Positions 1-41,486 of a stretch of 64,000 nt of DNA are shown in pieces. The stretch lies in the NCBI GenBank assembly GCA_002633005.1, contig NMRA01000226.1, positions 65,728 to 129,727 on the forward strand, in the 5' to 3' direction. The first letter of the stretch is position 1. Each line of letters begins with the position of its first letter. The DNA is from Phoronis australis. Its lineage: Eukaryota; Animalia; Phoronida. The position numbers and the translations under genes are program-made. The notes under the pieces are model-generated. The model was not told the DNA's origin, searched no databases, and saw only the letters and a list, made by a program, of their open reading frames with translations.

Positions 1-848
1 ACCAAGTCTTGACTTGAACCCAGTCTTGGCTGTTAACTGTGTGTAATATTCTGACATTTTCCTTACAAAATGAACAGTAGTCAAGGTTCAAATTAGAAGA
101 CAAGGCACTGAACAGCTGACTGGCAAATCATAAAAATTGTGCAAAAATGACCACCAGAGTATACGTGCCTTTTTGTGCAAGTGCAATAGAGGTGATCCCT
201 TCCTTGTCACAATTTTGCATTTTCAGAGCAAGATGATTGGGCACAAATTGCTCTACCTTGACAAACGGGTCACAAATGTTTGTCACCGTGGTGTCAGTTT
301 GCTCCATGTCAGTTGTGACATACTTGCGCTTGATCATCTTGTTGGGTGTCAGCTGTTCCGTGTCAACTTTTGTCAAGTGTAGACGGCACTTGTGTATTAG
401 GTAGAGTTACTAGATAATACATTCATTTGGGACTTTAAATAAATTCATCTATGAATACAAGCTTACTTGAAAAAAAAGAGTGGCACTCGTTCTGGTTAAA
501 GGCAGGTATGCTATCTTGCTTAGAGCGTATTGATAGTGATGAGAAGTTTTTGTGTTAGTTCTATGATCGTTGAATTGTCAGACGGTTATGTTTCCGAAGA
601 AGGAGTTGCTTACCGTCTGAGCAAGATTTTATGAAACGGTGAGTATTATTACCTTGCTTGTGTACACTTAGTGAAATGGTCGCCGCTGAAATGATTGTCT
701 GGCAATGCTAGAATGTTGAATGTTCTGCCTGAACAGAGACGTACACTCTGTATCTAAACCAATTACTGTTTTCCTGCAAGTGTCCAATTTGCAACAACCT
801 TGGCCGACGAAATGCAACCCAACTGTAGCAGCTGACGCTTTGTTGCAG

Positions 849-1017
849 ATTGATCAATCCAGACCATTGCAGTATATGTTAGTGACTGGTCTTCTCCCCT
901 ACACGACGTATCAGGTCAACATATCGGCCAAACCCTACGTTAAAGTGAAGGACACGATGCAAGAAATGGGCTTCTGGAGCGACAATGTGACCGCTGTCAA
1001 AACCACTCCTACTGATG
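849..1017 (+). CDS. Gene 1 exon: second half of cytokine-binding FN3 domain with degenerate WSxWS (GFWSDNV)
   Basis: ttgcag acceptor and gtaact donor; IDQSRPLQYMLVTGLLPYTTYQVNISAKPY...GFWSDNVTAVKTTPTD contains the FN3 LxPxTxY motif. The exact acceptor is less certain (alternative at 780). Confidence 0.8.
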
Positions 1018-4000
1018 GTAACTGTACTCGCACCCTGGAATATTTACCAAGTTGTGTTCTATAACTGTAATCTCTCTTCAATTTCCCTTATAGATTGTGT
1101 TTTTTCAAAGGGCTGGTGTGGTTTATTTATAACTGAAAGTGGTCACAATGTTTCCCATAATATTCAAGATCTTTCTGTACAAATAATAGAAAAACTCCAA
1201 AACCCCAGTACCCCTCACAGACTGAAAAGAGAACAATATTGGATAGATAAGCTCAATACACTAGAACCTCATGGATTAAACATAAAAACTTATCAAATTA
1301 TATCATTGAATTTTTTCCGCAAAAGTGTATCATATTCATTACGCCATATCTTAAATGTCAATTGTCATATAGTGTTTGATTTTACTTTATTTCTGTTTCT
1401 GTTGACAAAGGACATTATTACATCCGAAAATTTTAGTTGATTCATTCTTGTTGTTTTATTTACCTATTTACTGATGTTGCCGTAATTTATCGCGGTGATC
1501 ATTCATTGTTTTCAGTGCCCAGCGCATCACCAGACCTCCTACCTGGCTCATACCGCAGACATGGTTGCAACGCCATCCACTGTAAAGTCACAATGATGTG
1601 GCCGGTAAGTTGATTTTCAATGTCATCTGTTGGGACCACAAACGTAGTGAAATTCAGATGTGCCCCTTAACATCTCCTGTACACACAATGCGATCAATTC
1701 GCATATACTACTTAAATCTACCCTTAAGTTTCCATGACATGTACTTCTTGAACATGAAATACTTAACAAGAAATCCAAGAAATGCAGATAATAAAACTAG
1801 TAAAACTAGTAAAAATAGAATGACGAGCGTCGTTGCTAAAATATATTAAAATAATTATCCTCCTCGTTTCAAGCGATGCCCTCTTTCTTGAGGGTATGAT
1901 ATTGTTACAGAGTATACCACCATGTGGTCACCTGTGCGTTTTTATTTTTATCCAATCTACTTGGCAGTCTGTATCATACCCTTGACAAAGAGCGCATCGC
2001 CCGAAACGTAGGGAATATTTTAATATATTTTTGTACCGACGCTCGTTATTTTATTTGTACTAGTTTTAATAGTTACATTACATTCGATTTCTTATCTGTC
2101 GCTAATGGCAGGGAATTCCAGCATCTGTATTTGATTTATTTAAGAAATTCATCAATTAAGTCTGTATGAAAGCGTTCATTCTGTTGTAGCTGAAAAGTGA
2201 CCTGTGCTAATTTTTATGTGCCCACATATTTATATGTGGTCGCATATTGCCGTCATCTCTGTCTGGGCGTCCGGCGTCCGCGGCTGTATCTCCTAAACCC
2301 CTTGCAGGATCGTATTGAAATTTGACAGGTGTGTTCCTATGGGGTCTACGACTGAGGGCGGCGAGTTTCGGACCGACCCGAATACCGCTGTGCCCCCTAG
2401 TGGCAATTTTAGTTTTTTACGTGTGCCTCTGTTGCTTCAGAGGTCTTCAACAGATTTTCATGAAATTTGGTACATAGGCATCTATTAATGAGTTGACGCT
2501 ATCCTCCCGTTTTCGGATTGCTTCGTTGGGTTTTGCGCATCTAGTGGTCATTTTAAATATTTTCGAGTCATTTTTTGACGTCCGCTCCTCTACTGCCCAA
2601 ACCACTCTAAGGATGATTGTGAAAATTGGCATGTATGGTCTTACTATGAAGAAGACTGTTGACAATGATTTTCCGATGACTTCGACTACTGTGGCGCCTC
2701 CTAGTGGCAGTTTCATTTGTTTTTGCTTCCATGGCTATATCTCCTAAACGCTCTACAGGATCTTTATTAAATTTAGCAAATGTATTTATATAAAATTGAC
2801 AACAGACAACGACAACTTTCGGACAGATTGGTCTACCGGTGTGCCCCCTTGTGGCAATTTTAGTTTTTTACGTTTATCGCTGTATCTTTAAAGGTACTCA
2901 ACGGATTTCCATAAAATTTGGCACATAGACATCTATTAGTGAGGTGACGCTAGCCATGTATCTTCTGATTGATTCAAGGTTTTTTATGCCACCTAGTGGC
3001 CATTTTTGTTGTTTTTGAGTCTGTTTTGTGGCGTTTGTCCCTCTGTCAACCAAATCACTTTAAGGATGATTATGAAAGTTGGCATGTATGTACTTTCTAT
3101 GAAGGGGATGGTTGCCGATGATTTTCTGATGACTTTGACTACTTTGGCACCCCCTAGTGGCGGTTTTGTATTTTTTGCACCCATACCAGTCCTGTATCTC
3201 CTAAGCCCTCTGCAGGATCTTTATTAAATTTATCACGTGTATGAAGTTAACAAGAGAAGACAACCACTTTTAGAAGGATCCGATGAACACTGTGCCCCCT
3301 AGTGGCAATTTTGTTTTTTGTTTTCCTCTTTTTCTCAGAAAGTCCTCGGCAAATTTTGATATTAAAGTTTAACTTAGTAAATGACTTTCTTTTAAAGAAA
3401 CCATGACCTTTTTTGGTTTTCAGACAAATTCGGCGTATTTTGCGCCATCTAGTGGCCATTTGAATGATACAAATAAACAACCCTAAAAGCACACCATTTG
3501 CGATGCATTCGTGGGCGTATTTCAACGGTCCGCGTTGCTCTTGTTGTATTTAGTGGTAATATTTTTAATGCCTGATGAGCCCTGTTTTCTGAAGTGTTTC
3601 GTGACTTGTACGTGCTCCAGACAGACTTCAGCAGAACTCTTGTCAGTCTCGACCAAATTTGCTAGAATTATTTTTCATGACTGTTTAATTGAATTTTTTT
3701 TGTGGTTAAATTTTGTTAAATTTCGACGTTCAGTTTGTTGTTTGTTATTCATTGCAACATAGTCCTATCATGATAAGGAAAATTCAAGACCAAATATCCG
3801 TCAGTTAGTGCCCAGGACTAGTTTCAACTTTGGTTTTCATGACAGCCAAATAGATTTAGAGAAACTGTACATTTATTTATGAGGTAAATATTCACGCAAC
3901 TTTTGTGCAAATCGTAACTCAGTACAAGGTGGAACTTTCAAAATATGACAGCAAGTTGACTTGCCATTTTCTGGAGCATATTCATTTGATTTGAAAATTG

Positions 4001-7000
4001 CCGCACACGCTGCTGGGTATGGTGTGGGGGTGCGAATTTGTTAACAAATTGAAGGAGAAGTACCATATTTTCTGCCCTTGGGATGGTGATAATCCTAGCT
4101 ATATTTACTGAACGCAAGCGTCAATTGCTAAAAGTAAGTCGTTTTATTCAAATGGATCTCATATCTCCAGGAAATGTCTAGATAATGTGGTATCATTTTC
4201 TTTTTTGTCGCTCTTCCTTTTTCTGTTATCCTTTTTAAATAAGTCTGGACTTACAGCATTTAGCTGAACCCTAAAAAATATATCATGCATTTTATGTTCT
4301 AGAGCTTACCTCAGATACACGCTAATGGCGTTATCATTGGTCAGAAAATCACTCTGTCGCCATTGGGTGAACCTGATCACGTGACTCACAGTGTGGATGT
4401 GGAACGGGCTGGCTTTAGTCGGTCATGTGTGCTACAGAATCTACTGCGTAACACCACCTACAAGGTTCAGTTGAGAGCAAGCACAGATCGAGGATACACA
4501 AACAATGCCTCATCCCTGATTATACCCAGTGATAGCACAGGTTAGTTATTAAATACCTTAGCCTATAATGTTGTGTTTTGGGATCTTCGAAAGGTGAATA
4601 CACGAGCTATGATGCCATTAATGAAGGACACAATATGGCTATTGGTGAAATTTTGTTCGCTCATCTGGCCTTGGTGAATCTTCAACCCTCTTACATTCGT
4701 CAGAATTTTTCCACACACACCAGTTCTTGATGCTAAATCGGTGTTTGTAGTGGTAGTCCCATTCGATCCGATCGTTGTCACTTGTGATCTTTCGCCAGAC
4801 TCCTCTTGCATTCTCCTGAGGTTTTCTTTCTGTAAATTTGGGCGTAACACTTCAGACGGACAGCTAATCCGAGCTGAACCCAATGCTGCCTTTCCAAGCT
4901 GACATCGGTCTCTCTTGATGTCCCTTGTCTTTCCAAGTGTCATCCATCCTATTCATGGAATTCACGGCTTCGCCGATAACTAGAACTTACTTTAAACACT
5001 TGATGAAACTGTGCTCAACTGTCATCTTCAGATGGTCTCCTATTGTCCTTAAAGGAGCATGCCACCCAAGAAACAACCCATTTTGTATCAATTTAATTCG
5101 AGTAGTTCTACTCGATAACGGCACGTTCGGTTGCATTACCTGACACCTGACGGCAGATGGAGATGTTGAAATTATCCAATGACGTAATTGGTTTCACACG
5201 CAGTCTGTTCAGCAGTTCACAACACGGGTTGCTGGTGTCAGGTTATCGCTTGAATTCATCGTTTAACACCAATAAATCATCAAACTTCGATGTAAAACCC
5301 TTAAAAATACACCGAGTTCTTATAAAAACGTGTTGACTTTTATTTCGCTGTTACGGATTTATTCGTATTTGGACACACTGTAGCCTACAAAGTTTGGCAG
5401 GCCAATTTAACAACTAGCAGAAGTTTGGGGTCTGTTCGGAGATAAATTTGAAGTATTCTTCAGTGAAATACAGACAGCAGAACCTAGAACTGTGTTGTTT
5501 AGACTTATGATTTTTTTTAGTTCTAAACATATAAAACGCTTATTATTTCAACCAGTGGCTCGGAACCCGATCAGGCCCGTTGCGGCGGCCGGGACTGGCA
5601 CGAAGTTAAACCAGCTTCAGTTTTAAACTAAACCTTCAGTCAGGAAAAGACTATAATAGTGAGCCAAAGAAATAATAGGAATTAGCCACGAAACTGAAAT
5701 AACTACTTACTTGTCGGGGGCCGCGACTAGTCGGGTTACCCTTCCACAGACTGTCAGGGAAAAGGTTGTACAGTAACAATGACTTGAATAATGTATTTGT
5801 TTTTCTAAATAAAGATTCCCCTAACATGTGACCATAGCATATAAAATCGAGTAATTGTTTCACAACAGCTTTCTGTCAGCAAACACTGAATTAGCATGGG
5901 CTCACACGGCCTCGGTGCCCAGTCAATTACCTTGTTGCCGGCATAAAAAGCCGGTAACGCAGTGGTTTCTTCATTGCTGGCTTCTCAACATTTGCACTCA
6001 CTAATACTGCAAAGGTATTACAAATTGTATCTAATTAGACAGACTTTGTTTCAGTTTTATATAAGCATTGCAGGTCATGATGAGATCAATTCATTTTGAA
6101 ACAGAACGTAGAATAAAATAATAAACGTCTACATGGCAACTCGTCCGGCGCCAATCCCGACTTAGTCAAGAGCTCAACCAACAAAGACTTCACGGATCAG
6201 ATCGTTAGGTTTCACAGGCTATCAATTCGAACCGGAATACACTGATCAAGAAAAAATAGAGGGGCTCCGTGAACATGCACAGGCAACGGAACGTATGGAT
6301 AGTTCTTTGGTAAGCCGGAATTAGTCAGAGAAATCACTGTCGACGAAATGCCGGCCACAGGCACGGAGATGTTTTACGGCCTCATACTTGCTATTAACAG
6401 CGTACATTTCATTCTTCACTACCACGAGCCATTTCCTAAGTATTTCAAGCTCTCGAGGAAGTCGAAAAAACAATATACCCGCTTTCTTCGCAGCTTCTTA
6501 GTTCGGACAAGCGGGAACGATGCACTACGATATAGCGGCATTCACTCTGCAGACAAAGCACTGACGTCGCTGCATCGTTTCTCACCTTCCTCACAGGTTA
6601 ACGCGACACCTCTTAGCAAGATGAGGTCGACCGTATAAGAGGCGATGTGTATATAGACCGATTAAGACGGTAAAAAAGACTGTCTAACTAAATCAGGTGG
6701 CATTGATCTCCTTTAATGTTTTCGTCCCCAAACCAAGACCATCACTAGTAGGCGGGACAACAGAGTTGATCAGGCTCTGTCTTCATCCAAATCCAACAAG
6801 ATGCCTGTTAAGCTTCGGTGGTCACATCGCAAACAGGCTTCTTGAATGCAATCAAAAGGGACTCCAATACTTTCAATCGCAGCACATCATGCTTTACGTA
6901 CCGAATTGACGTGTTTTCCACAATTTCTTGATTTTACATCGTGACATTGCAGAAAATTTTCTTGGATGGCGCCATTTTGAAGATGCATAGATATTTGACG

Positions 7001-10000
7001 GGAATGACAGCAAACTGTTGGACCACTGTAACATTGCTTGACATTTGAATGAGGACATTTCGTTCGGAGGGCTTACGAACTCAACAACACTACACTGGGC
7101 AAAAGGCTGGACTTTCGCTTTAGAAAATAATGTTATTTTTCATGACGAAGTTGGAGGACTTCCTATTGTGATAATAAATAATGACATCGAGGTAGTCAGT
7201 GGGCTTACAAACTTTGCTACTTTATTTTCTGAAAGCAGAAATTCTGTAGGATTTTTTACTTTAAAATTTACCAATCTGCGATTAGTTGAATCGTGTAACA
7301 ATGTCTTTTTAGTAAAATTTAATGAAAAAGAAAGAATTTAATGAAAAAGAAAGGACTTCATTTCTGACATACATGTAAGTCCTTAAAGTCACTTTTTGTC
7401 AAGCTTAATTACGGTGACCGTGGTCACTCAAATTCATCACTTAACAAGCAGTACTGTAGGATTTGGCATTTTTATGGTCCCTTTCCATGGGGTCAAATTT
7501 TACTGTACACTATTTGGAAGATCTTTAACATGGTTTGCAGGTATAAGCTAGACACTAATTATGACATTATGGTAAGTAGTAAATGGTTCATGAATGAAGT
7601 TTGACAAGCAGTGTGTTTTATTATTATTATAATTGATCCAACTGAGGCAAGACTATTTTTTGTACTGACTGTTCGTTTGTCTATTTGCAGCACCAGTGGC
7701 GCCACAGTATGTCTCTGCCGTAAAGCTCAATGATGCGGAGGTGAAGCTCTCATGGGAGTATAATGGACCACCTGCTGAGTTCATGGTGTTCTGGTGCAAG
7801 GGCAAGGACGAGAAGTGCCTGGAAAAGGTCAGTTGGTACAAAACAAGCTGAGGTGCTTTAGTAACTGTGCAGAATTTTATTTACGCCATCATTCATAGTT
7901 AGAATAACATTTTGAAACACTTTTCCTGAACAGCCTACCACCTGACCATAAAAAGGTGATTGTCTACTCACCTGTAAACTACAGATTGTTGATTTTCTTT
8001 GATGATCCCTTCATTATGTACTACTCATCGATTATATTATGACTCATTCAGTATGACGATAATATACAGAAAATTAATGAGTCGTTGCTAAACTTACTTA
8101 AGATGAAAGGCAACCTGCGACCTGTGCGACCTCTGGTGGATTCTGTCGGAGTTGAGAAGCCCACAGGCTTGAAAAAGCCAGCAGAGACTGGCGAAACATT
8201 GCCCTTTCATCTCAAGTAAGTTCAGTAACGACTCATTAAATTTTCTGCATACTACGGTCTGTACTTTATTATTAAAAAGGTCTCGTTTTGCTTTTCTTTG
8301 ATTCATAGATTTTCTTTGCCTCAGCAGCATGAAATAAATGGTCTGTTTAGTGTCAAATGTGTAGCAACTATCGTCAAGGTAGTTGTACTTCTGTTCATTA
8401 TTTTGCACAAAGCTTAACAGCCGACACACTCAGTCGATTTGAATATTCAATGCAGATTGCTCTGCCCGACCACAGTATACTGTTGTACAGCATTCAATTA
8501 TGTTAACATCGATGTAAGATCATGTTTCTTACTGAATATTCACTTTTGTCAGAGTCCTATGCAGTGCCATTTTTGAAAACCATCATTTGGTTCGTGTTCT
8601 GGGGTGGAGCCCTTTGTTTTACTTTTCTGTCATGAGGAGTAAGAGTTACTAAACAGACGTGATGAAAACCTCGACCCAACGGAGTTCATTGATTACTCCA
8701 CTATTCACTACCACTAATTTGGTTTATTCACTTTCGAAGTTTGCGATTTCGGTTTGAGAGAGATTGCTTATTTACACTTGGAGCTAAGCTCGTTTGTTAC
8801 TTTACAGCAATTAGTATAGATGGCGATTTCATGATCAGATGTTCAGTACATTTATTTTTGATACAGATGCTTTCCAAATGAAGATCGTTCTTCAGGAATT
8901 GCATAATAATCTCTTCAGACTCCACCCACGATTCACGCTCATTCGAATCCGCATTTTTCTCTTCAAATCCATGAAACACAACATTGTCACGGCGTGACCG
9001 GTTCTCTAGGTCTTCAACTTTGTATAACGGTATGATTCAGACATTTATTATATTTGTAGAGTGACCTGGAATTCCGCAAGGTGACCACTGGCCATTCCGT
9101 GCACATTCACCCCTCGGACTCTGTTGACCAGTACATCTATGCAGTGTCTACTACGTCGCAGAGGTCAAGTCTCAACATGACTATTGGAAGTGCTATGGTC
9201 GTCAGTGCCTGTCTCTATCTACTGCACAATCGCAGTAAGTTGTGTAAGATTGTGCATGCTTATTCCATGGTCATTATCTAAACTTGTGTACACGCTACGA
9301 ATTACCATAGAACAACTAACTGGCACCCATTCTGCTACTTAGCAAATATGGCGGAAAATTAATAAGCATGGTGGCACATGTTTATGTACAGCAACAGCAG
9401 AATCTTTTCGATGTGTTGTGGCTGACATTTCACTGAAACTGTTACCAGCATTGACTCAGGGTACATAATTATGGGGGACCTAGAGGAATGCCTAACACAT
9501 TGTCATATCCACGATTCCAAGTTTTTGAGCCCATTCGTATATAACTAACCCAGTTGAGCTTCTTTCACATGTTACATCATTCTGGACAGCTCTACGGACT
9601 TTGCCGTTGTTTTGCATGTATTCCTGACTCTAAGTCTGGCAATCAAATCAGAGACGCTGGTAAGCATCCACAGTGCAACTGGTGATTAGATAAGACACCA
9701 GATTTGACAGCAAATCTTTTGTGGCAACTGGTGGTATGTTATATGGAATTATGTACAAAGTCTTGTTGGTTAGGTCACGTTTCCATAAATCACAGGACGT
9801 GTGCTGTAACCTGCAGATGCTCCGAATATTCACATCAGATGCGAATGAAAAAAGAAAAAAATTTGCAAAACATTAGGAAGCTGTATTTATTTCAGTTAAA
9901 GCTTGTTCATTCTGACATATTTTCCCAGGTGTATTTTCCCAGGTGTATTATTCAACTTATCTTGAGATTTGCTTTATATCACAAGCACTTTTTGTCATGT

Positions 10001-13000: not shown

Positions 13001-16000
13001 CTGATAATGTCTATACTCAAGAGTAAATTTGAAGCAACGGAAATACCACAGCTGTTCTGGGGGAGACGGATAAGCACATACAGCTACCAGATACTTAAAG
13101 CTAATACGGTATCCTGGCGGTAATAAACAGTGTGTTTTATCAACATTATTTTTCTAGCTATACCGGCTCCCTCTATTAGTGAAGACAGTCGGCAGCCAGA
13201 CTACACGATCTCTCTACGTGGTCTGAGTGTCTCCTGTGAGGATCTTGAGGATGTCGTGCTCAATTATACAGTGTCTTACTGCGTGGCCAATCAGCAAAGA
13301 GCCAATTGCTCAGGTGACTCATGAGTGCAACGTGTGTTATAGATATAGCGTAGATAGTAAAGGGAGATATGTCAGAATTGGAAGAGGGAGGGGGTGGGGA
13401 TTTGTCGGAGGAAGTGAGCTTGATGACCGCCAGAGAGATTAAAGGTGGTGTTTGTGATAGCTATGAGTAAACGTTGGGCTAAGTTCGTTCTGTTGTGACA
13501 GGGGTAAAGGTTGGGCAAAGTTCATTCTTTGTCTCATGGAAGGTTGGTAAAAGTTCATTCTGTTTTCCCAGGGGGGAAAGTTGGGCAAAGTTCATTGTTC
13601 TTGGTGATAGGTTGGATGGAGTTCCTCTTGTTTTCTTCGATGTGAAGGTTGGACAAAGCTCATTTGGTTTTCTCAGGGTGAAAGGTTGGGTGAAGTTCAG
13701 TCTGTTCTCTCAGGGTTAAAGGTTGGGCAAAGGTCATTCTGTTTTCTCAGGGGTAAAAAGTTGGACAAAGTTCAGTCTGTTTTCTTAGCCTGAGCAAACA
13801 AATTGAGGGGTGAAGGTTGGCTAAATTTCATTCATTTGATGTAGCTTGTGCTGATAATATGACTTGTGCTGATAATATGACTTGTGCTGATAACATGACT
13901 TGTGTGTGTAATTTTGGCTTTGTGAAATGTGTATATTGTTGTACCTGCTTGTTTGGTAATTGATGGTTTTCATCAAATAATCAAGTTCCTGTTTCATTTA
14001 GAAGTTTTGTCTAATCGTGTTATGAACTTTCTCCTGCACTACATAAACTACAAACAGTACACTCCAAAATTAGGACATCGAACTTTTGTTTCACACAATG
14101 GTTAGTCACCACTACAAAAACGTCCCATTTAGTTTTATCTGCTAATGCATAGCAGTTTTCGATTCAATGCAGATGCTACTGTTAAGCGTTCCTAGCAGTT
14201 TTGTCTTTCTAATATTTGGCCTGAACTAATTGCTCGGTTGGTTTTCACCTCAGATCTAGAACTCCATGTGAACCGATCGACTAGTCAGACTGATATAAAG
14301 GACCTACCTGCAGACACGACCTACCTCGTCTGGGCCCAGACTATCTCTAGGTCTGGTAAGAGTGCACTCAGCAATCGGCTCGTTATAACTACAACAGGTG
14401 GGTGTTCAAATTTACTAAAGGGGAGACTTTCAGGAAGCAGTGGTTGCTACTCGCATGTGACCGGTGACTCACAATGCCACCTAGCTGCATAACGCGAAAT
14501 CGTCGTGAGAGACCGTCCAGAGTTGGTATATGGTGCAACTCCGGACGGTCTGGAGTTAACAGAAAACCACAGTTCAACTGTGAGTCTACCCCAATGTGAT
14601 AAACGAGAGTAGTTCTACTTGCTGCGTCAGCTGCAGGTATGCTTTTCTCTTTTATGACACACAATGTGTGACTGGGCAAAGCGTTTTCAAAATAATGTGG
14701 ATAAATCAGTGGAGCGTGAGATCCCTGAGGTCTCTGTCAAGTCCTCACGACAATTTTACGTTATGTGTACCAGGACTTGCTTAGTCTTCACAACAGGTGG
14801 CATAAGGGAATAGCCTTTGCCTGGTGATAAAGAATTTACCTTTTTATGTATGTGATTAGACGGGGTGTGTTTTAAACAAAAGTTATGAAGTACCTCCTTG
14901 TCCTCCAGAGGCCACTGGTATATGGTAACATTTGACCAGTCACTGCATTGCCTTGAAAGCCTTGTCCCATTACAATTTTCATCCAGGGGCACATTCGGCA
15001 ATAGTAGTTGGAAGGTGGTGAGATCACATGGGGTGGAAGTCGGTGACGTCACATGGGGTGGAAGACGGTGAGGTCACATGGGGTGGAAGGTGGTGAGGTC
15101 ACATGGGGTGGAAGGTGGTGAGGTCACATGGGGTATCTCGCAAGGAATCTTGTGTTGTCACCAAACTTGTTCTGGACTATCTGCACTGAACTCCAATAAA
15201 ACTTTGGTAAAAATTTGTGAAATCAGTGTGCATATAAATTCCGGTTATTCTCACGTGAGTGAAGTATCTCTCTTCAACATATGCAAATAAAAAATGTTGA
15301 TTTTATGGGAAAATGTGTAAGGAAAATAACTCAGTCTACTACATTTACAGTCGTGTGGTGTACTTTAGATTGCTGTCATGTTGACATGAGTTATTTTCAT
15401 GACAGATTACTGTCTATAACTGTCTTCCTCCTTGCTATTACCTAAAACTGTTGTATGTGATTTTTGTTCCTTGTTGCAATCTTTAAAGTTTTGGTCAGGA
15501 GCAAAATACTTTGTACAATTAAATTTCTTGTTTTTCTTCATGATTTTTGCCACAACAGTGATGCAACTTACGAATTTGAGGAGATTTTGCTATAAGATTC
15601 TTTATTTTAAGTTTAAAAATGTCTGCTGTACATGGAATCATTATTTTTTATTAAGGCAATTTATTCAAGTAGTTGACTGTATATTACTCATGGTACCTAA
15701 ACTACATGGTTAACGGACTCATAAACAGGATCACGGGCGCATGAAAACGACCGTGTTTCTTCGTGAATGTCAGTCTGTGTCCTGTGTATTTGGGTGAATT
15801 AATCATGTTTTGTGAGTCAGTTCCCATGTTTGTGAGTCAGTGAATGGTGTTTGCAGGTACGTGAGTCATGTTCATGCGTCCGTGACCCTGTTTATGATTC
15901 CGTTAACCGTGTAGTTCAGGTACCTTGTTACTGGCTTGAATCATTGACTGTTATTAATCTTATTGTAGAGGTTGGCATTGATGAACTTACTAAGTTTGAA

Positions 16001-19000
16001 GTACTGAAGTGTAAAACATTCATCGTGCACATTCTGCGCAGATTGTTTAAAAGTGCAATCTTTGCGTCAATTTTAAAAATTGTAGTCTATTGTTTGAAAT
16101 TTTTAATAGTTTTTAGTTTTTCTTTTTTGATGGTTACAATTTTATTGTGCTCTGTGACTTCCATAAATGACAAAGCTCGATTTCATCTGTTTGCTTACGT
16201 TGTCTTGTTGTCGTTTCGTGTTATCAATCTTTGTTGTTTTGTTTGTGTTCAGGCCTATCATCTGTTGAGCTAGCTGTCATTGTTCTGGGCTCTCTGGTTG
16301 GGTTGGTTGTCACTTTGGCTGGTTTTGTCTTTATGGTGAGGTAAGTAGTACTGCTATCACATGCTGAAAAATCAAAAGGGAGCTCTGGAGTCTGTGACTA
16401 GTACAACATTCGCATGCTGTCCAATCAGAATATAGTTGTCACATTCCATCTGAACAGAAGGTAAATCTTTGATCTGTGACAAGTGCAGCATTTACGTGCC
16501 ATCTGGTCCAACGCACATCTGCCATTATGAGAACTGGTCTGCCACTTACCATGATTGTAAAATTTAATTGTTCTTAATCAATCTCGTTTGTTTCGCTTTA
16601 GAGGTGATCGCTGATCTTAGGCGAAAACTGGCTGTTCACTAGTTGTTCAGACCAAGGTTGAATCTGGTGTTAACCAGTACTTTAAAAGACGTGAAATCAC
16701 CTCCAGTTTGGCTAAGGAACAGTTTGTTAAATAATTGTTAATGGTAACTTCTCTAAATCAAACAAGTTGTTTTTGTGATGGAAGGGGAGTTTATAGCTGC
16801 TTTAAATAACTTGTTGCATGTAGTTGTCAAATTTACCTCGAACTTTAACTTTGTTCAATGTGTGTAGATTCCAGTCATGAATGTCTCCCTCGTGTGAGAA
16901 AATTCAGGCTGTCAGTGTAAAGTATTGCTCAGTGTGTTCGTAATTATTTTCAGAAAACTGAAAGACAAGATTAAGAGATGCTGTAGGCCATTTCATTTTG
17001 AGATTCCTGCCAACCCTGAATTGGCCATTCACGTAAGTCTGCACAATAGATTGACTCGTCAAATGTCTTTTTGTTGGACACTTAGTGATATTTCAGGGCA
17101 GTATTATGTTAGATCTGTGGTGTGTTAAGTACTGTGTAGAGATAAAAGCATGAAAATTTTGAGACATCCAGTTGAGAAAACAGATCAAGTTTGAGTCTAA
17201 TACTGTAATAAAAACTTACAAAAATTAGCGACGTTGCGTCCACATCTCGCGAACTTCAGCTTGGCTTGTGACGTTATCGTTATTCTGGCCAGTTGGCGGC
17301 GTTTTGACCAGACGGCGCAGCATTGACGTCAGAACACCATCCCATACGTGTTACAAATCGAATTTTAAACCGCCCCCCATGTGGATGCCCGGGGCTGTCG
17401 CCCTGTCGGTACCGTCTTATGCACACTACTGGGTCTGTTTCATGAAATGTGACTTAAGACTTAAGTGACAAAGCTCACAAGACCACTTATAACGTGCTGT
17501 GAGCCAACCGTTTATAAATTCAGATCAGGCTGGAGCCAACTGATGTGCAGTGACTGACTGGCAGAGTTTTAAGCTCGTTAATTGCTGTTTCATCACCCAA
17601 CTTTTTGGTGTGCTATACAACCAAACAAGTTGAACTCAACGGGAAAACACCGCAATGAAAACATTCGTATTAAAGCCTAGGTTTTAAGATTAGTAGTTTC
17701 ATCAGATAGCTGGAACAACACCAGCACATCAAATGAATATACCACGGACGGTGGACTAAAGACCAAAAGCTGTAAACAGTGATAGCCTTAGTACTGATTA
17801 AACAAGTTAAGTTTAGAGACTTTACTGTGAACACCACTCTCAGATCTCTGCAATAAATTATTTGAACAATGCTTTGCAAGTCAACTTCATGCTGATTAAT
17901 ACTTCAATTAAATAGCATAGCGGAGTGTCGCCTATTAGGGCCCCTCCTGTAATAAGCACAGGTGTGTTATGCCTCGTGGAAGCCAGTGAAAGCAGCATTG
18001 TTAAATAAGTGCCGGGCTGTAATTCAAGACTAGTTGAAACAACTCTGTTTTACTGGATGGTTAAGAGCTTGTTGTTAACAAAATACAAGTGAACATGATG
18101 TGAGGACATATGTGTTGCGAATGTCATGTTTGATGTATGTAATGGTTGTTTTAAAAACATATTAATAACATGCAGAAGCCAGTCTCACACTCGTTTGACT
18201 CTGGATTGCAAATCAAACGTACAATGGACAATCAACAATAAGTTAGTGCTGCGTGGGCAAAACTGGCTGTGATGAATACTTGCTGGGTTTTAAGTGAGCA
18301 CACGGGTCTTGAAAAGAAAAAAGCGTGGGGATTAATACGCGACACCACGGTATAACTTGGCTTCTTTGCCGGAACTGCTCAGTATAAAGTCTATAGCCAT
18401 TGCACTGCTGAATACACATTCCATAAATGCTTCAGAACTAAAAGAGCTCATCAGTTGGCTCAGGCCTAGGCAGAGTTCACTTGATGGCAGTACACTTGCG
18501 GCGAGAAAATTTTGCTTAGATGATGGAAAAGTGAATTTAATCCCAATCGATCCCATAATTCAACACAGACCGATCGCTTCAGTGGCGGCCATTTTGGCTA
18601 CTACAGGCTAGAATGCTCCCGGTCTAGTGAAACGCAACCTTTTTACTCGTGTGATCTTCCGAATTATTGGGATATCTTGCTTTTTCTAGAAAGACACTGA
18701 ACGCTACCCTGATCTATATAAACAGTTGACCTACAGCTCACTGGTCTTGTGAACTTTGTCAGTACTGTTGTAACTATGCTTGTGTGCATGTAGCTCCCTT
18801 CTATACACGGTTGAACCCTGTTTGGGTTTTGTTCATTAGATGTCCAATGTTTTACTGATAGCAATATGTGTAAATATATTGAAACATGCTGAAACTTAGA
18901 TATCTTGTTATGCTCATAAACATAGTAATGTATTTATTGGTATGTCACAGTCTAATATTTTAATATGATTTTTAAAACTAGGTGTATAATTATTCTCTAA

Positions 19001-21757
19001 TACTTTTTACTTTTGGGTGTTTTATATTTTTTGAAATAACTTCGTGGAGCAGAATCTGATCTACTGCAGTCAATAATGTTTTCAACATTCTTGTACAAAG
19101 ATATTTGTCATGGTGGAGTGTGCTAGTGAGTGGTGACACTAGTGAAACAACATGGGTTATGATGAGCACCCTCTGTCGTACATTACAAAAATGGTGTGAT
19201 ATAGGCATTGTCTGGTTGGCCACAATCTCTGATATACACGAGCTTCTTTGATCGAGGGATTTTGTCAATATTCTGTAAATTGGCTTTTTTATCATAGTCG
19301 GTGGTTTGTAATGTTTTTTTCCGTTTCCATGTTGATTTTTGACACATCTTCATTTTAATGAGATATGATGGCTGCATGGTACACCAACGAGTTTCTTGTT
19401 TTACTTGACAGTCTTCTGAGCAGACTATTGCTAGGCAGTACGACAAATTGTCAGAAGAGACGTCTCCAAGTAAGAAGAAAAAGAACAGGACCTTCAGCAG
19501 TGACAAAGAGGTCAGTCTCTCAGCTACTGTGTATGGCAACAGTTATCAGACAAAATACGAAATTCTGTTCACAACAGAAGTGGTGGCAAAATTCTAATTA
19601 CAGAATGGCTGGGCGACTGTATTAAAATTCTAGCTTGTTAATTCCACTTCATTGTCGTTCCTCAGAGAATATTATACTCTGACTATGAATTCAGTTTCCA
19701 CCCGGCTGTGAAGCTGAGGAATTCCGAATATTTGGTAACCCAAAAAAAAAATAGCTGGCAGTCTGATACACGTTGTACCAGATGCGCAGGCCGCGCATGT
19801 GGGCCCATTGCACTCATCACCTGGAACCATTTTTATGCTTTATCAATATATAGTTAAAACCAAGCTGAGGAGCTAGAAGCCTGATTCAAGAGTATAGCAC
19901 TGTGGCCCAGTGGGACTCTAACCCACGACTTCGAGTAAATAAACCAGGCACCTATCTCACTAGGCCACATTACCTCCCCCATTTGGTAACTCAGGTCATA
20001 GGCCCGTACATCTACTGTCTACTTTAGCACTGTTACCATAGGTACTCAGGTTTGATACCAGTAATACACTGAATACTAAAACAAAAAATAATGTCAGTAC
20101 AATATCAAAACGGAAAGTACTCGGTGCCTTAATAGGTACCTTGAAAATATGAAATTGTGTCTGTCTAATTTAATATTTTCTTATTTATTTATTTATTATT
20201 TATTTATTAATGTAATATTTACAATAAGGGTAGCGCCATCAGTTCACAGTGCTTTCCATGGGGGCCCTTGATCTATCTTTCAATTGTGTCATCTACGACC
20301 TGCGTGAAGTGGAACACAAATTGGCATCATGCTGCTATAACATTGTGAGGTCAATCAATGTGAACTATACATTTGTACTTTCGACAGCAAAAAAGTAATC
20401 AGTTTTGATATTTTGTACTTCACTTGTTGATTTGCAGGTTGTTGACAAGCTGCTGGGTAACGGTCACATATCAGCTGATCTAAAGTCCAGACTTCTGAGT
20501 CAGAAGCTGCTGGAACAATGTAGGCAAAGTGAAATAGTTGTTGATCAAGTGGGCTTCGGTAGTGACCACTCACTAGCGTATTACTTGAAAGCTGTGCCCC
20601 TATGTAATGGGGAGATATCAGTGGACAGCGTGGAAGAAAGACCGTTAGCAACCAGTGATGTACCGAGGGAGGGTCTTGTGGATAATGACGGTAGTAGTGG
20701 GTCTTCATGTGGTTACAAGGCAAGGGTGAACAGGGGAAGTGCGCTTACGGTGGATAATGATGAATGTGAGTCTAGGCCAGGGGAGGGTTCCATGGATAGT
20801 GTTGTAAGCAGTGACTCATCAGCGGATTATAAGTTCAAAGTGAACAGGAAAAAGGCTCAGCCACTTGGTGAGGAAAGTGGTTCTAGGCCGTGGGATGGTT
20901 GCGTGGATAGTGCTGGTAGCAGTGAGACGTCATGCAGTTACAAGGCAAGAGTTAATAGAAACAGTGCTCACCTACTCAGTGGCAAAGTTGGTTCTGTAGA
21001 GATGGAGGGTGACGCTGATAGTGGCGATAGCTGCGGGTCGTCAGCTGATTATAAGGCTAGAGTGAACAGGAATAATGTTCACTCGTTTGATGATAAGTGT
21101 GCTTCTAGACCACGCAATGGTTCTGTTGTGGGTGGTGATTGTAGTGAGTCTTCCTGTAGTTACGTGCCGGTTAGGTTGACCAAGAACAGTGATCACTTGC
21201 TTAGGGATAAAAGTGATCCGGAAGATGGACACGATTCAGGATTGTCTGCAACCAACAGCGATGATTCATCTTACCATTACAAACCCAGGGTAAATAGAAA
21301 CATTAGCCCCGAGGTGGCCCCATTCGTTCTTCGTAATCAAGAGTCAGAAATTAGCAGTTATGGAGATGCTTGCACTAGCAAGCCTGTGTCTATCAAATTT
21401 GATACTACTGGGTTACCCTCAAGCGTTTATAAGCCAGAGTTAGGAAATGACAGGATGAACAGAAATGATAGCTATAAAGGCTCCTCATTAAAAACTCATC
21501 TATCCAAGCCAGAACCTCATGTTGCAGACAGCTCATCTTGCCCTTCCAAGACCCTAGAAGGCTCTTCTAATAGTTGGGATAATACCAGGTATTCAGCTTC
21601 AGATATAACGGCTAGCGGTCAGCCACCTGAACATGCTGCTTGCGATGACGATTACTGGGGTGCTGACTCCAGGTCTCATGACACGAAATACTCAACTGAC
21701 CGTGACTTGAATGAAAGTGCTTCAGATGTGTCCTACAAAAGGCCGTGTTTCTCTTAA
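849..21757 (+). CDS. Gene 1 (5'-partial): gp130/Domeless-like class I cytokine receptor; exons 849-1017, 1516-1604, 4303-4540, 7691-7827, 9060-9234, 13158-13313, 14254-14397, 16253-16340, 16954-17032, 19412-19510, 20438-21757
   Basis: Eleven exons with AG/GT boundaries join in one open frame (intron phases 1,0,1,0,1,1,1,2,0,0). The product reads: FN3 half with GFWSD, three FN3 domains, TM helix, Pro-containing juxtamembrane motif, long Tyr-rich tail. This is the tall gp130/LIFR/Dome architecture. Confidence 0.85.
1135..1445 (+). mobile_element. Penelope-like retroelement 3' remnant (GIY-YIG endonuclease C-terminus plus pLTR-like tail)
   Basis: DLSVQIIEKL...RLKREQYWIDKLNTLEPHGLNIK matches the RExxWIxxLxTxxPxGLN end of PLE GIY-YIG domains; a hammerhead-like motif follows. 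Confidence 0.75.
1399..1436 (+). ncRNA. Minimal type I hammerhead ribozyme-like motif (U3-A8 core variant)
   Basis: ctg-TTGACAA-a-gga...tcc-GAAA-at-TT-tag, located downstream of the PLE GIY-YIG remnant. Confidence 0.5.
1516..1604 (+). CDS. Gene 1 exon: N-terminal half of FN3 domain
   Basis: ttttcag acceptor, gtaagt donor; VPSASPDLLPGSYRRHGCNAIHCKVTMMWP; phase 1 in, phase 0 out. Confidence 0.8.
1979..2013 (+). ncRNA. Minimal type I hammerhead ribozyme-like motif (U3-A8 core variant)
   Basis: ccc-TTGACAA-a-gagcg cat cgccc-GAAA-cg-TA-ggg; stems I and II pair (one mismatch in stem II), with a minimal palindromic helix III. Confidence 0.55.
2211..3545 (+). mobile_element. Non-autonomous Helentron (DINE-1/HINE-like) element with ~150 bp subrepeats in a ~452 bp higher-order unit
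   Basis: T-run start, 5' palindrome (ccacatatttatatgtgg), GTCC/GGCGTCC microsatellite, internal tandem repeats, 3' inverted subterminal copy (gtgggcgtat) and terminal hairpin caacg-gtccg-cgttg. Confidence 0.75.
4303..4540 (+). CDS. Gene 1 exon: C-terminal half of FN3 domain
   Basis: ttctag acceptor, gttagt donor; SLPQIHANGVIIGQKITL...LQNLLRNTTYKVQLRASTDRG; ANGxI motif typical of gp130-family membrane-proximal FN3 domains. Confidence 0.85.
4660..4935 (-). mobile_element. 5' fragment of an RLE-type non-LTR retrotransposon (Hero/NeSL/R2-like N-terminal zinc finger)
   Basis: GVCGKILTNVRGLKIHQGQM resembles the CxCGKxCxxxxGLKIHQ finger at the start of such ORFs; degenerate. Confidence 0.45.
6340..6700 (+). 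repeat. Dispersed repeat, inverted relative to the copy at ~55680-56030
   Basis: Clear nucleotide similarity; both translate as SGIHSA...SL.RFSPSSQVNATPL.K.RSTV. Confidence 0.7.
7691..7827 (+). CDS. Gene 1 exon: N-terminal half of FN3 domain
   Basis: tttgcag acceptor, gtcagt donor; APVAPQYVSAVKLNDAEVKLSWEYNGPPAEFMVFWCKGKDEKCLEK (LSW and VxWC motifs). Confidence 0.85.
8800..9022 (-). mobile_element. LINE ORF1p fragment (L1/L2-type)
   Basis: KVEDLENRSRRDNCVFHGFEEK...ESWVESEEIIMQFLKNDLHL contains the DLENRSRRxN motif. Confidence 0.7.
9060..9234 (+). CDS. Gene 1 exon: C-terminal half of FN3 domain
   Basis: tttgtag acceptor, gtaagt donor; SDLEFRKVTTGHSVHIHPSDSVDQYIYAVSTT...SACLYLLHNR; phase 0 in, phase 1 out. 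Confidence 0.8.
13158..13313 (+). CDS. Gene 1 exon: N-terminal half of membrane-proximal FN3 domain
   Basis: tttctag acceptor, gtgact donor; IPAPSISEDSRQPDYTISLRGLSVSCEDLEDVVLNYTVSYCVANQQRANCS. Confidence 0.8.
13468..13832. repeat. Minisatellite, ~37 bp unit (aaaggttgggcaaagttcattctgttttctcagggt), about 10 degenerate copies
   Basis: Direct inspection. Confidence 0.8.
13844..13905. repeat. 18 bp tandem repeat (cttgtgctgataatatga) x3
   Basis: Direct inspection. Confidence 0.85.
14254..14397 (+). CDS. Gene 1 exon: C-terminal half of membrane-proximal FN3 domain
   Basis: cctcag acceptor, gtgggt donor; DLELHVNRSTSQTDIKDLPADTTYLVWAQTISRSGKSALSNRLVITTT (LxxxTxY motif). Confidence 0.85.
15010..15134. 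repeat. 25 bp tandem repeat (ggaaggtggtgaggtcacatggggt) x5
   Basis: Direct inspection. Confidence 0.9.
16253..16340 (+). CDS. Gene 1 exon: transmembrane helix
   Basis: Long T-rich tract then ttcag acceptor, gtaagt donor; GLSSVELAVIVLGSLVGLVVTLAGFVFMVR. Confidence 0.88.
16954..17032 (+). CDS. Gene 1 exon: basic juxtamembrane segment and Box1-like (putative JAK-binding) motif
   Basis: ttttcag acceptor, gtaagt donor; RKLKDKIKRCCRPFHFEIPANPELAIH; phase 2 in, phase 0 out. Confidence 0.82.
19412..19510 (+). CDS. Gene 1 probable 99-bp symmetric cytoplasmic exon
   Basis: gttttacttgacag acceptor, GAG|gtcagt donor; open in phase 0-0: SSEQTIARQYDKLSEETSPSKKKKNRTFSSDKE. Not needed to keep frame, so less certain. 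Confidence 0.62.
19860..19980 (-). mobile_element. tRNA-derived SINE head
   Basis: Minus strand has A-box-like TGGCCTAGTGAG and B-box-like GGTTAGAGTCCC at tRNA-like spacing. Confidence 0.55.
20438..21757 (+). CDS. Gene 1 terminal exon: Ser/Asp-rich, probably disordered cytoplasmic tail with repeated tyrosine motifs
   Basis: tttgcag acceptor in phase 0 within the 450 aa ORF; 439 codons to TAA; repeated YKARVNR-like motifs. Confidence 0.88.
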   Translation, partial: VVDKLLGNGHISADLKSRLLSQKLLEQCRQSEIVVDQVGFGSDHSLAYYLKAVPLCNGEISVDSVEERPLATSDVPREGLVDNDGSSGSSCGYKARVNRGSALTVDNDECESRPGEGSMDSVVSSDSSADYKFKVNRKKAQPLGEESGSRPWDGCVDSAGSSETSCSYKARVNRNSAHLLSGKVGSVEMEGDADSGDSCGSSADYKARVNRNNVHSFDDKCASRPRNGSVVGGDCSESSCSYVPVRLTKNSDHLLRDKSDPEDGHDSGLSATNSDDSSYHYKPRVNRNISPEVAPFVLRNQESEISSYGDACTSKPVSIKFDTTGLPSSVYKPELGNDRMNRNDSYKGSSLKTHLSKPEPHVADSSSCPSKTLEGSSNSWDNTRYSASDITASGQPPEHAACDDDYWGADSRSHDTKYSTDRDLNESASDVSYKRPCFS

Positions 21758-41383: not shown

Positions 41384-41486
41384 ATGTTCAGGTTGCTGCT
41401 GTGTTGTCTTGCCTCTATTCTGTCTGCGGTGGACTGTAGCTCTGTGTGTCCTATCCAGATCCCTGGCTTACCGGTATTGCCGGGAA
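41384..41486 (+). CDS. Gene 2 first coding exon: signal peptide
   Basis: Acceptor ends at 41350, ATG at 41384; MFRLLLCCLASILSAVDCSSVCPIQIPGLPVLPG; gtaagt donor in phase 1. Confidence 0.8.

What the first reader, a model, noticed from the sequence alone, without database searches (positions are those of the whole stretch)
20690..21305. Cytokine receptor tail with a repeat-amplified array of six phosphotyrosine-like docking motifs
Seen: tyrosine codons at 20714, 20828, 20939, 21050, 21161 and 21278 (spacing 114, 111, 111, 111, 117 bp) lie in SCGYKARVNR, SADYKFKVNR, SCSYKARVNR, SADYKARVNR, SCSYVPVRLTK and SYHYKPRVNR. The motif is far better conserved than the Ser/Asp/Gly spacers, and the SADY/SCSY alternation suggests duplication of a two-unit block. 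Related motifs follow (VYKPEL, SYKGS, SYKRP). Known: class I receptors recruit STAT/SHP2/SOCS SH2 domains via pTyr motifs; IL-4R alpha uses GYKAF/GYKPF for STAT6 and gp130 uses YxxQ for STAT3. No YxxQ is apparent here. Inference: a multivalent SH2-docking scaffold that tunes JAK-STAT signal strength by repeat copy number in an invertebrate receptor.
Basis: partly seen in the sequence, partly recalled or inferred. Interest (0 to 1): 0.8.

Follow-up and report, generated by a model that had tools for sequence, protein, structure and literature searches.

The report
Selected tyrosine repeats in cytokine receptor
RNA reads show that this invertebrate splices six old copies of a 37-residue unit onto the inner tail of a likely gp130/Domeless-type cytokine receptor, and a short tyrosine motif in five of the copies has stayed almost unchanged while the spacers drifted, so the copies likely serve as repeated signalling docking sites, although the motif fits no listed STAT-binding pattern and its partner is untested.

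Summary
Six tyrosines lie at the stated positions in a ~111-bp internal repeat of the last exon. RNA reads from three runs splice this exon in frame to the juxtamembrane and transmembrane exons of an FN3 receptor with no catalytic domain. Between copies the Y-K-x-R/K-V-N-R core has pN/pS 0.09-0.21 and the spacers 0.87-0.94; neutral simulations reach such a core in 2 of 3000 and 0 of 3000 trials. So the core looks selected.

Three corrections. Spacers do not support a two-unit block. Copy 5 has diverged to YVPV. No copy-number variant appeared in four runs, and the array is old, so present-day tuning by copy number is unsupported.

The core fits no STAT1, STAT3 or STAT6 consensus, and a basic +3 residue is unusual for SH2 ligands. 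Best reading: a multi-site phosphotyrosine dock, likely for STAT (0.45). No homologue of the tail was found. An unchecked scan note reports a 19-motif array in a marine worm's gp130-like receptor, so this may recur. New variant of a known kind; interest 0.45.

The parts
781..1017 (+). Exon for the second half of an FN3 domain ending in a degenerate WSxWS-like GFWS; start uncertain (781 in phase 1, or 849 in phase 0). The gene's 5' part lies upstream of the window.
   Evidence: Pfam fn3 E 0.02-0.03, below cut-off; GFWS; outside the stretch laid with RNA, so predicted only
1516..1604 (+). Predicted exon, first part of the next FN3 domain
   Evidence: GT/AG ends and open frame; not covered by the RNA lay
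4303..4540 (+). FN3 exon
   Evidence: Pfam fn3 E 6.5e-6, above cut-off; RNA joint to 7691
7691..7827 (+). Ectodomain exon (likely FN3 first half)
   Evidence: RNA joints on both sides; no Pfam hit
9060..9234 (+). Ectodomain exon (likely FN3 second half)
   Evidence: RNA joint at the 5' side; 3' joint to 13158 inferred from GT/AG and frame, not among the 15 joints shown
13158..13313 (+). Ectodomain exon (likely first half of the membrane-proximal FN3)
   Evidence: RNA joint 13308>14249, which reads GT..AG when cut 5 bases further right
14254..14397 (+). Membrane-proximal FN3, second half
   Evidence: Pfam fn3 E 0.0028; RNA joint to the TM exon, 9-13 reads per run
16253..16340 (+). Transmembrane exon
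   Evidence: Strongest hydrophobic 19-mer of the model (2.6; next best elsewhere 1.56); RNA joints on both sides
16954..17032 (+). Juxtamembrane exon with the Box1-like IPANP at tail residues 18-22
   Evidence: RNA joints on both sides; PxxP present, PxP absent
19412..19510 (+). Short cytoplasmic exon
   Evidence: RNA joints on both sides
20438..21757 (+). Coding part of the last exon: 439 aa, Ser/Asp-rich, holding 16 of the tail's 17 tyrosines and the repeat array
   Evidence: Open frame; RNA joint 19510>20438 with 17, 14 and 18 reads; no Pfam hit
20624..20734 (+). Repeat unit 1, Tyr at 20714 (YKARVNR)
20735..20848 (+). Repeat unit 2, Tyr at 20828 (YKFKVNR); 114 bp, or 111 bp in an allele lacking 3 bases at 20757
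20849..20959 (+). Repeat unit 3, Tyr at 20939 (YKARVNR)
20960..21070 (+). Repeat unit 4, Tyr at 21050 (YKARVNR)
21071..21184 (+). Repeat unit 5, diverged core with a one-codon insertion, Tyr at 21161 (YVPV, the only Yxx-hydrophobic site in the array)
21185..21298 (+). Repeat unit 6, Tyr at 21278 (YKPRVNR) plus an extra Tyr at 21272
21428..21757 (+). Unique distal tail with three more Y-K sites (21428, 21473, 21734); the last, YKRP, fits YxxP

Best explanation
The last exon of a spliced, expressed receptor gene that is likely of the gp130/Domeless type carries six old copies of a 37-residue unit whose tyrosine core was likely kept by selection, and these cores likely act as repeated docking sites that a receptor-bound JAK would phosphorylate and an SH2 protein, most likely STAT, would bind. 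Shown: the repeat, its in-frame splicing to the TM exon, and the contrast between conserved cores and drifting spacers. Because the core departs from known high-affinity consensus sites, I propose that each site is weak and that five copies on long flexible acidic spacers make up for this by number. Copy 5 (YVPV) would have switched to a SOCS/SHP-type or endocytic site.
For: In-frame RNA joints link FN3, TM, juxtamembrane and repeat exons; the model has one stop, at its end. Core pN/pS is 0.21 (six copies), 0.09 (without copy 5) and 0.11 (copies 1-4), against 0.87-0.94 in spacers. Neutral simulations reach the best 7-codon identity of 0.86 in 2 of 3000 and 0 of 3000 runs. Among core codon pairs of copies 1-4 and 6, 59 of 70 keep the residue and 35 of those 59 use a different codon, so this is not recent copying. 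Tyr is kept in 6 of 6 copies, and two of the five synonymous polymorphisms fall in Tyr codons (21163, and the extra Tyr at 21272). Y-K also recurs at 3 of the 10 tyrosines outside the array (P about 0.03 by hand). Y-K begins tyrosine sites in human IL-4R alpha (GYKAF, GYKPF), LIFR and IL-23R (GYKPQ) (PMC7444064 Table 1). In gp130, STAT1 output falls when fewer phosphotyrosines are available (PMC6914340 passages).
Against: None of the six sites fits YxxQ, YxxP or YxxF; only copy 5 fits the loose STAT5 and SOCS patterns (against PMC7444064 Table 2). Position +3 is R or K in five copies, while SH2 domains typically use hydrophobic +1/+3/+5 contacts (10.1101/2024.09.09.612134), and Lys at +3 is called uncommon (10.64898/2026.08.18.744962). 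The Box1-like site lacks the vertebrate PxP. The within-species test is not significant: 0 of 11 amino-acid polymorphisms fall in the cores, P = 0.10. STAT3 output in gp130 saturates with few sites, so extra copies need not matter. No orthologue was found, so conservation across species is untested. The simulation assumes a star tree, even rates and no gene conversion, and leaves out copies 5 and 6.
Confidence: 0.45

Rival explanations
1. The cores are selected but are not SH2 ligands. Each is a basic patch behind an acidic Ser-rich stretch that would bind inner-leaflet lipids, a non-SH2 adaptor or a ubiquitin ligase, with the tyrosine as a hydrophobic anchor or an off-switch.
For: Residues +4 to +6 (V-N-R) are as well kept as +1 and better than +2 and +3. 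Tyr to +9 carries net charge +2 to +5 and the 25 residues upstream -1 to -7 with 6-8 Ser/Thr. The Ser run is also constrained (pN/pS 0.42-0.46). PRLR's tail binds inner-leaflet lipids (PMC7444064 passage). A basic +3 is a poor fit for SH2 domains.
Against: Tyr is invariant in all six copies, even in the diverged copy 5. The host protein looks like a kinase-less cytokine receptor, a class that signals through tail tyrosines. The 14-3-3 pattern I scanned (the Pro-ending one) and NPxY are absent; only one DSG-type degron pattern was found.
Confidence: 0.27
2. The cores are phosphotyrosine sites read by a negative regulator or adaptor (SOCS, SHP, Cbl or a lineage-specific SH2 protein), and STAT docks elsewhere, for example at the terminal YKRP. 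The array would then damp or redirect signalling.
For: The cores fit no STAT consensus, while the last tyrosine fits YxxP. Copy 5 fits the loose SOCS pattern. A likely paralogue lies downstream, and in Drosophila the neighbour of Dome is an inhibitory receptor (PMC4751595).
Against: Five of six cores do not fit the SOCS3/SHP2 patterns either, which need a hydrophobic +3 (PMC12849345 passages).
Confidence: 0.2
3. The array is a neutral by-product of slippage or unequal crossing-over in a tolerant disordered tail, and the apparent motif is the stretch that happened to drift least.
For: Spacers evolve close to neutrally (pN/pS 0.87-0.94 between copies, 0.76 among alleles). Copy 5 has lost the core. 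No homologue was found.
Against: Neutral simulations reproduce the core in only 2 of 3000 and 0 of 3000 runs, with the best window chosen after the fact in each. Synonymous sites in the cores are near saturation while the residues are kept.
Confidence: 0.08

Closest known systems
gp130-family (group 2, 'tall') class I cytokine receptors: gp130, LIFR, G-CSFR, IL-12R beta 2
   Same: FN3 domains, a WS-bearing motif, one TM helix, a hydrophobic-Pro site near the membrane and a long non-catalytic tyrosine-rich tail. Several similar STAT sites on one tail are normal: gp130 has four main ones.
   Different: No YxxQ; IPANP instead of PxP; a 499-aa tail against a group mean of 210. The sites arose by tandem duplication of a 111-bp unit; reading Table 1 of PMC7444064 by eye I saw no such repeat among the 29 human receptors.
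Drosophila Domeless and Eye Transformer/Latran
   Same: An invertebrate long receptor with a minimal hydrophobic-Pro JAK site (LP in Dome) and a paralogous neighbour in tandem. Et/Lat binds STAT92E without a YxxQ or YxxL motif, so invertebrate docking can depart from the vertebrate consensus (PMC4751595 section 7).
   Different: Dome has a YxxQ site; no repeat array is described in the passages I read. Orthology to Dome was not shown.
IL-4R alpha STAT6 sites (GYKAF, GYKPF)
   Same: Y-K at +1, A or P at +2, several related sites on a very long tail (575 aa).
   Different: +3 is F in IL-4R alpha and R/K here; the conserved V-N-R at +4 to +6 has no counterpart there.
Repeated phosphotyrosine scaffolds such as p130Cas YxxP arrays and H. 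pylori CagA EPIYA repeats (recalled, from no call)
   Same: One tyrosine motif multiplied along a disordered chain.
   Different: Different motif, and here it is part of the receptor itself; no copy-number variation was seen in four runs.

Membership tests
Class I cytokine receptor, gp130/Domeless type | FN3 ectodomain, single TM helix and a tail with no catalytic domain, in one transcript | tested here: met
   Pfam fn3 on 3 of 6 ectodomain exons scanned (one above cut-off); one strong hydrophobic segment; no family on the tail exons; RNA joints
Class I cytokine receptor, gp130/Domeless type | WSxWS motif at the end of the cytokine-binding module | tested here: inconclusive
   Only a half motif, GFWS, at the end of an FN3 exon in the expected place; that exon was outside the RNA lay
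Class I cytokine receptor, gp130/Domeless type | Two cysteine bridges in the first domain of the cytokine-binding module | not testable with these tools
   That part of the gene lies upstream of the window and no genome is held. The downstream neighbour has two Cys pairs there and weak prolactin-receptor hits (7 of 8 hits, best E 0.16)
Class I cytokine receptor, vertebrate definition | Box1 with PxP | tested here: not met
   The juxtamembrane site is IPANP (PxxP); the only PxP lies at tail residue 418 (consensus)
Class I cytokine receptor, Domeless type | Hydrophobic-Pro JAK site close to the membrane (LP in Dome) | tested here: met
   I-P at tail residues 18-19 after F-H-F-E; Dome's LP site from PMC4751595. 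A two-residue match is weak, and binding is untested
Class I cytokine receptor, gp130/Domeless type | Box2 | not tested
   Poorly defined motif; no scan was made
Cytokine receptor superfamily | Intron phases 1-2-1-0-1 across the cytokine-binding module | tested here: inconclusive
   Predicted exons of the neighbour give 1-2-1-0 (my reading); the focal exon gives 0-1 only if it starts at 849. Pattern seen in print for a class II receptor (PMC8863823); its use for class I is recalled
STAT docking sites (STAT1 YxxP, STAT3 YxxQ, STAT6 YxxF, STAT5 loose) | Consensus residue after the tyrosine | tested here: not met
   0 of 6 array sites fit YxxP, YxxQ or YxxF; 1 of 6 (copy 5) fits the loose STAT5 pattern
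SH2 docking sites in general | Phosphorylation-dependent binding | not testable with these tools
   No STAT, SOCS or SHP sequence of this animal was available and phosphotyrosine cannot be modelled here
Receptor tyrosine phosphatase or kinase | Catalytic domain in the tail | tested here: not met
   No Pfam family on the three cytoplasmic exons; the weak RPTP-F hit (E 0.03) is to an FN3 exon only

The most novel reading that the evidence does not exclude
Invertebrate gp130-like receptors repeatedly build signalling capacity by tandem duplication of a tyrosine motif. This one defines a new, basic phosphotyrosine consensus (pY-K-x-R-V-N-R) read by an invertebrate STAT or other SH2 domain of altered specificity, with one copy converted to an inhibitory site. 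It would be a natural version of the multi-motif synthetic receptors, and a ready peptide probe for the unknown docking code of lophotrochozoan JAK-STAT.
Probability: 0.25. Interest if true: 0.7.

Novelty: new variant of a known kind. Interest (0 to 1): 0.45.

Why it matters
Outside insects, I found no paper that says which tyrosine motif an invertebrate cytokine receptor uses to recruit STAT. An internal repeat is its own evolutionary experiment: it marks the residues that matter without needing orthologues, and it points to a seven-residue basic motif that vertebrate rules do not predict. That makes the docking code directly testable with six short peptides. If the unchecked note on a marine worm's 19-motif array holds, motif amplification may be a recurring way for these receptors to evolve. 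The principle itself, several docking tyrosines on a disordered cytokine-receptor tail, is textbook.

Tried and rejected
Homologue searches gave nothing useful. The tail against 770-2195-aa proteins: 0 of 7983 scored candidates at E <= 1. The repeat region against 1.84 billion representatives: 0 at E <= 0.001. The GFWS exon: 0 of 14 candidates. A profile of five FN3-like exon halves: 6 of 4362 candidates, all generic FN3 proteins. ESM Atlas: no usable hit for the tail and only hits under 0.9 for a neighbour exon. PDB sequence searches on seven exons gave no hit better than E 0.03, and two exons gave none. The scan's sequence look-up found no look-alike window, and nothing near this window. No whole genome is held, so paralogue tails and this animal's STAT, SOCS and SHP genes could not be read. 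The look-up of sequencing runs listed no RNA holder on record; the RNA evidence comes from three raw-read runs added by species label and one contig set guessed to be RNA. Rejected: the two-unit block (spacers do not alternate); copy-number polymorphism (no joints in 4 runs; few samples, so rare variants are not excluded); a receptor phosphatase or kinase (no catalytic domain); a candidate 65-bp exon at 10959-11023 (not needed for the frame, not among the joints shown). No fold or complex job was run: the tail looks disordered and no partner sequence was at hand.
Full report
OBSERVATION. The + strand frame 20399-21757 is open for 452 codons. Tyrosine codons lie at 20714, 20828, 20939, 21050, 21161 and 21278 in the contexts reported. 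The pattern Y[KR]xx[VI]N[RK] occurs five times; 0 of 20000 shuffles of the exon gave two or more (the pattern was drawn from the data). DNA self-identity peaks at lags of 111, 336, 222, 225, 114 and 333 bases, at 0.36-0.43 against 0.28 +/- 0.02 for other in-frame lags. The repeat finder shows four 80-nt copies at 64-74% identity to the reference copy. The array is a real, degenerate tandem duplication of a 37-codon unit. The motif occurs nowhere else in the six frames of the window.

GENE. Three raw-read RNA runs and one contig set were laid on 3400-23300 (15 of 55 joints were shown). Seven of the joints shown belong to this gene. The four that matter most are FN3 exon to TM exon (12, 9, 13 reads), TM to juxtamembrane (11, 9, 13), juxtamembrane to 19412 (19, 5, 21) and 19510 to the repeat exon at 20438 (17, 14, 18). 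Over the array all depth has the first mate on the minus strand, as expected for a + strand transcript in a stranded library. An eleven-exon model has GT/AG at all ten introns and a single stop at its end; three of those introns (1017/1516, 1604/4303, 9234/13158) are inferred, not seen in RNA. It gives 420 residues of partial ectodomain plus TM and a 499-residue tail with 17 tyrosines. Pfam fn3 hits three ectodomain exons, one above cut-off. The cytoplasmic exons hit nothing. The first exon ends in GFWS, a half WSxWS, and IPANP sits 18 residues into the tail.

FAMILY. No search placed the gene by sequence, so the assignment rests on architecture. A neighbour at 41384-63831 has predicted exons for a signal peptide, an Ig domain (Pfam Ig_3 E 0.022) and a module with two cysteine pairs. 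One of its exons has prolactin receptor as 7 of 8 weak PDB hits (best E 0.16). The strict vertebrate Box1 PxP (PMC7444064 section 18) is not met. Drosophila Dome binds its JAK through only an LP motif (PMC4751595 section 7), which the I-P here resembles. I call the protein gp130/Domeless-like and do not file it as a proven member. An earlier scan note calls the animal a likely lophotrochozoan (e1-10581397); I did not check this.

SELECTION ON THE MOTIF. In a codon alignment of the six units, the core (Tyr to the end of the motif) has pN/pS 0.21 with all copies, 0.09 without copy 5 and 0.11 for copies 1-4; the spacers have 0.87, 0.93 and 0.94; the Ser run just upstream has 0.42-0.46. Because the core was picked for being conserved, I simulated neutral divergence of four gap-free units and took the best 7-codon window each time. 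The observed 0.86 identity was reached in 2 of 3000 runs matched to whole-unit DNA identity and 0 of 3000 matched to spacer identity (star tree, even rates, copies 5 and 6 left out). Among core codon pairs of copies 1-4 and 6, 59 of 70 keep the residue and 35 of the 59 differ in codon, which argues against recent copying. Among alleles, 16 substitutions and one 3-base deletion were listed in 20630-21330. Eleven change a residue and none of these lies in a core, but that is not significant (P = 0.10; pN/pS outside the cores 0.76).

(a) Two-unit block: the alternation covers only codons -2 to 0 in copies 1-5. Spacer identity averages 0.48 for the six same-parity pairs and 0.50 for the nine opposite-parity pairs (my means), so it is not supported. 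(b) Copy 5 has a one-codon insertion and has lost K+1; five copies, not six, share the motif. (c) Copy number: no joint that skips or repeats a unit was seen in 4 of 4 runs, one of which may be the source of the window. The only length variant is the 3-base deletion, which turns the first spacing from 114 into 111. With units about 62% alike in DNA, the array is old and was fixed in these few samples.

WHAT THE MOTIF MAY BIND. Against the consensus list in PMC7444064 Table 2, 0 of 6 sites fit YxxP, YxxQ or YxxF. Copy 5 (YVPV) alone fits the loose STAT5, SOCS and Yxx-hydrophobic patterns, and the terminal YKRP fits YxxP. Y-K does start tyrosine sites in IL-4R alpha, LIFR and IL-23R (Table 1), but those have F or Q at +3, where this core has R or K. 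Two preprints (passages only) say that hydrophobic +1/+3/+5 contacts are typical of SH2 binding and that Lys at +3 is uncommon but can support it. Et/Lat binds STAT92E without a known consensus, so vertebrate rules are not binding on invertebrates. In gp130, STAT1 needs many available phosphotyrosines while STAT3 saturates with few (PMC6914340 passages). This gives a mechanism for a weak motif made effective by number, and also a reason why number might not matter.

MECHANISM AND ODDS. Best reading (0.45): ligand-driven dimerisation would activate a JAK bound at IPANP, which would phosphorylate the array; five similar cores would recruit an SH2 protein, most likely STAT, and copy 5 would recruit a different reader. 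Rivals: a non-SH2 role for the basic core behind its acidic Ser-rich stretch (0.27), an inhibitory or adaptor SH2 reader (0.2), a neutral repeat (0.08). Only the repeat, its splicing and the conservation contrast are shown.

NOVELTY. Five full-text searches aimed at this question listed no paper on a tandem-duplicated tyrosine array in an invertebrate cytokine-receptor tail; for most listed papers I saw only the title and the start of the abstract. Papers opened: PMC13203501, PMC3296744, PMC12849345, PMC10952290, PMC6914340, PMC11685922, PMC8863823 and the two preprints as passages; PMC4751595 as passages and section 7; PMC7444064 as passages and sections 15 and 18. I opened no supplements; those of PMC13203501 may list invertebrate receptor sequences that bear on novelty. 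The scan itself holds an unchecked note of a gp130-like receptor of a marine worm with about 19 tandem tyrosine motifs (e1-9806854). I could not see its motif or test it; it suggests recurrence and is no support for function. Verdict: new variant of a known kind, interest 0.45.

Noticed in passing
window 41384-63831 (+): 5' half of a second gp130-like receptor gene: predicted exons for a signal peptide (41384-41487), Ig domain (about 44803-45105), a cysteine-bearing module (about 46729-46849 and 62631-62818) and the start of an FN3 domain (63677-63831). Weak prolactin-receptor hits for one exon. No RNA was laid here.
   Followed up: partly
window 781-1017 and 63677-63831: The window opens in the second half of the WS-bearing FN3 domain of the focal gene and closes after the first half of what looks like the same domain in the neighbour, with compatible intron phase if the first exon starts at 849. 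Tandem paralogues are the simple reading; a mis-ordered assembly of one gene is not excluded. The window has no N gap.
   Followed up: no
window 20740-20780: One allele carries five substitutions and a 3-base deletion within about 40 bases of a spacer, seen in two RNA runs and one contig set; it restores the 111-bp period.
   Followed up: partly
window 21758-23300: RNA depth continues on the gene's strand to the end of the laid stretch, so the 3' UTR is likely over 1.5 kb; AATAAA at 22884, 23214 and 23747.
   Followed up: no
window 2388-3319 and 60974-61927: Two arrays of a ~451-bp tandem repeat with related units, each inside an intron of one of the two receptor genes.
   Followed up: no
window 8053-8236: RNA reads change strand here in all four data sets; the sequence looks like a short inverted-repeat element in an intron.
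   Followed up: no
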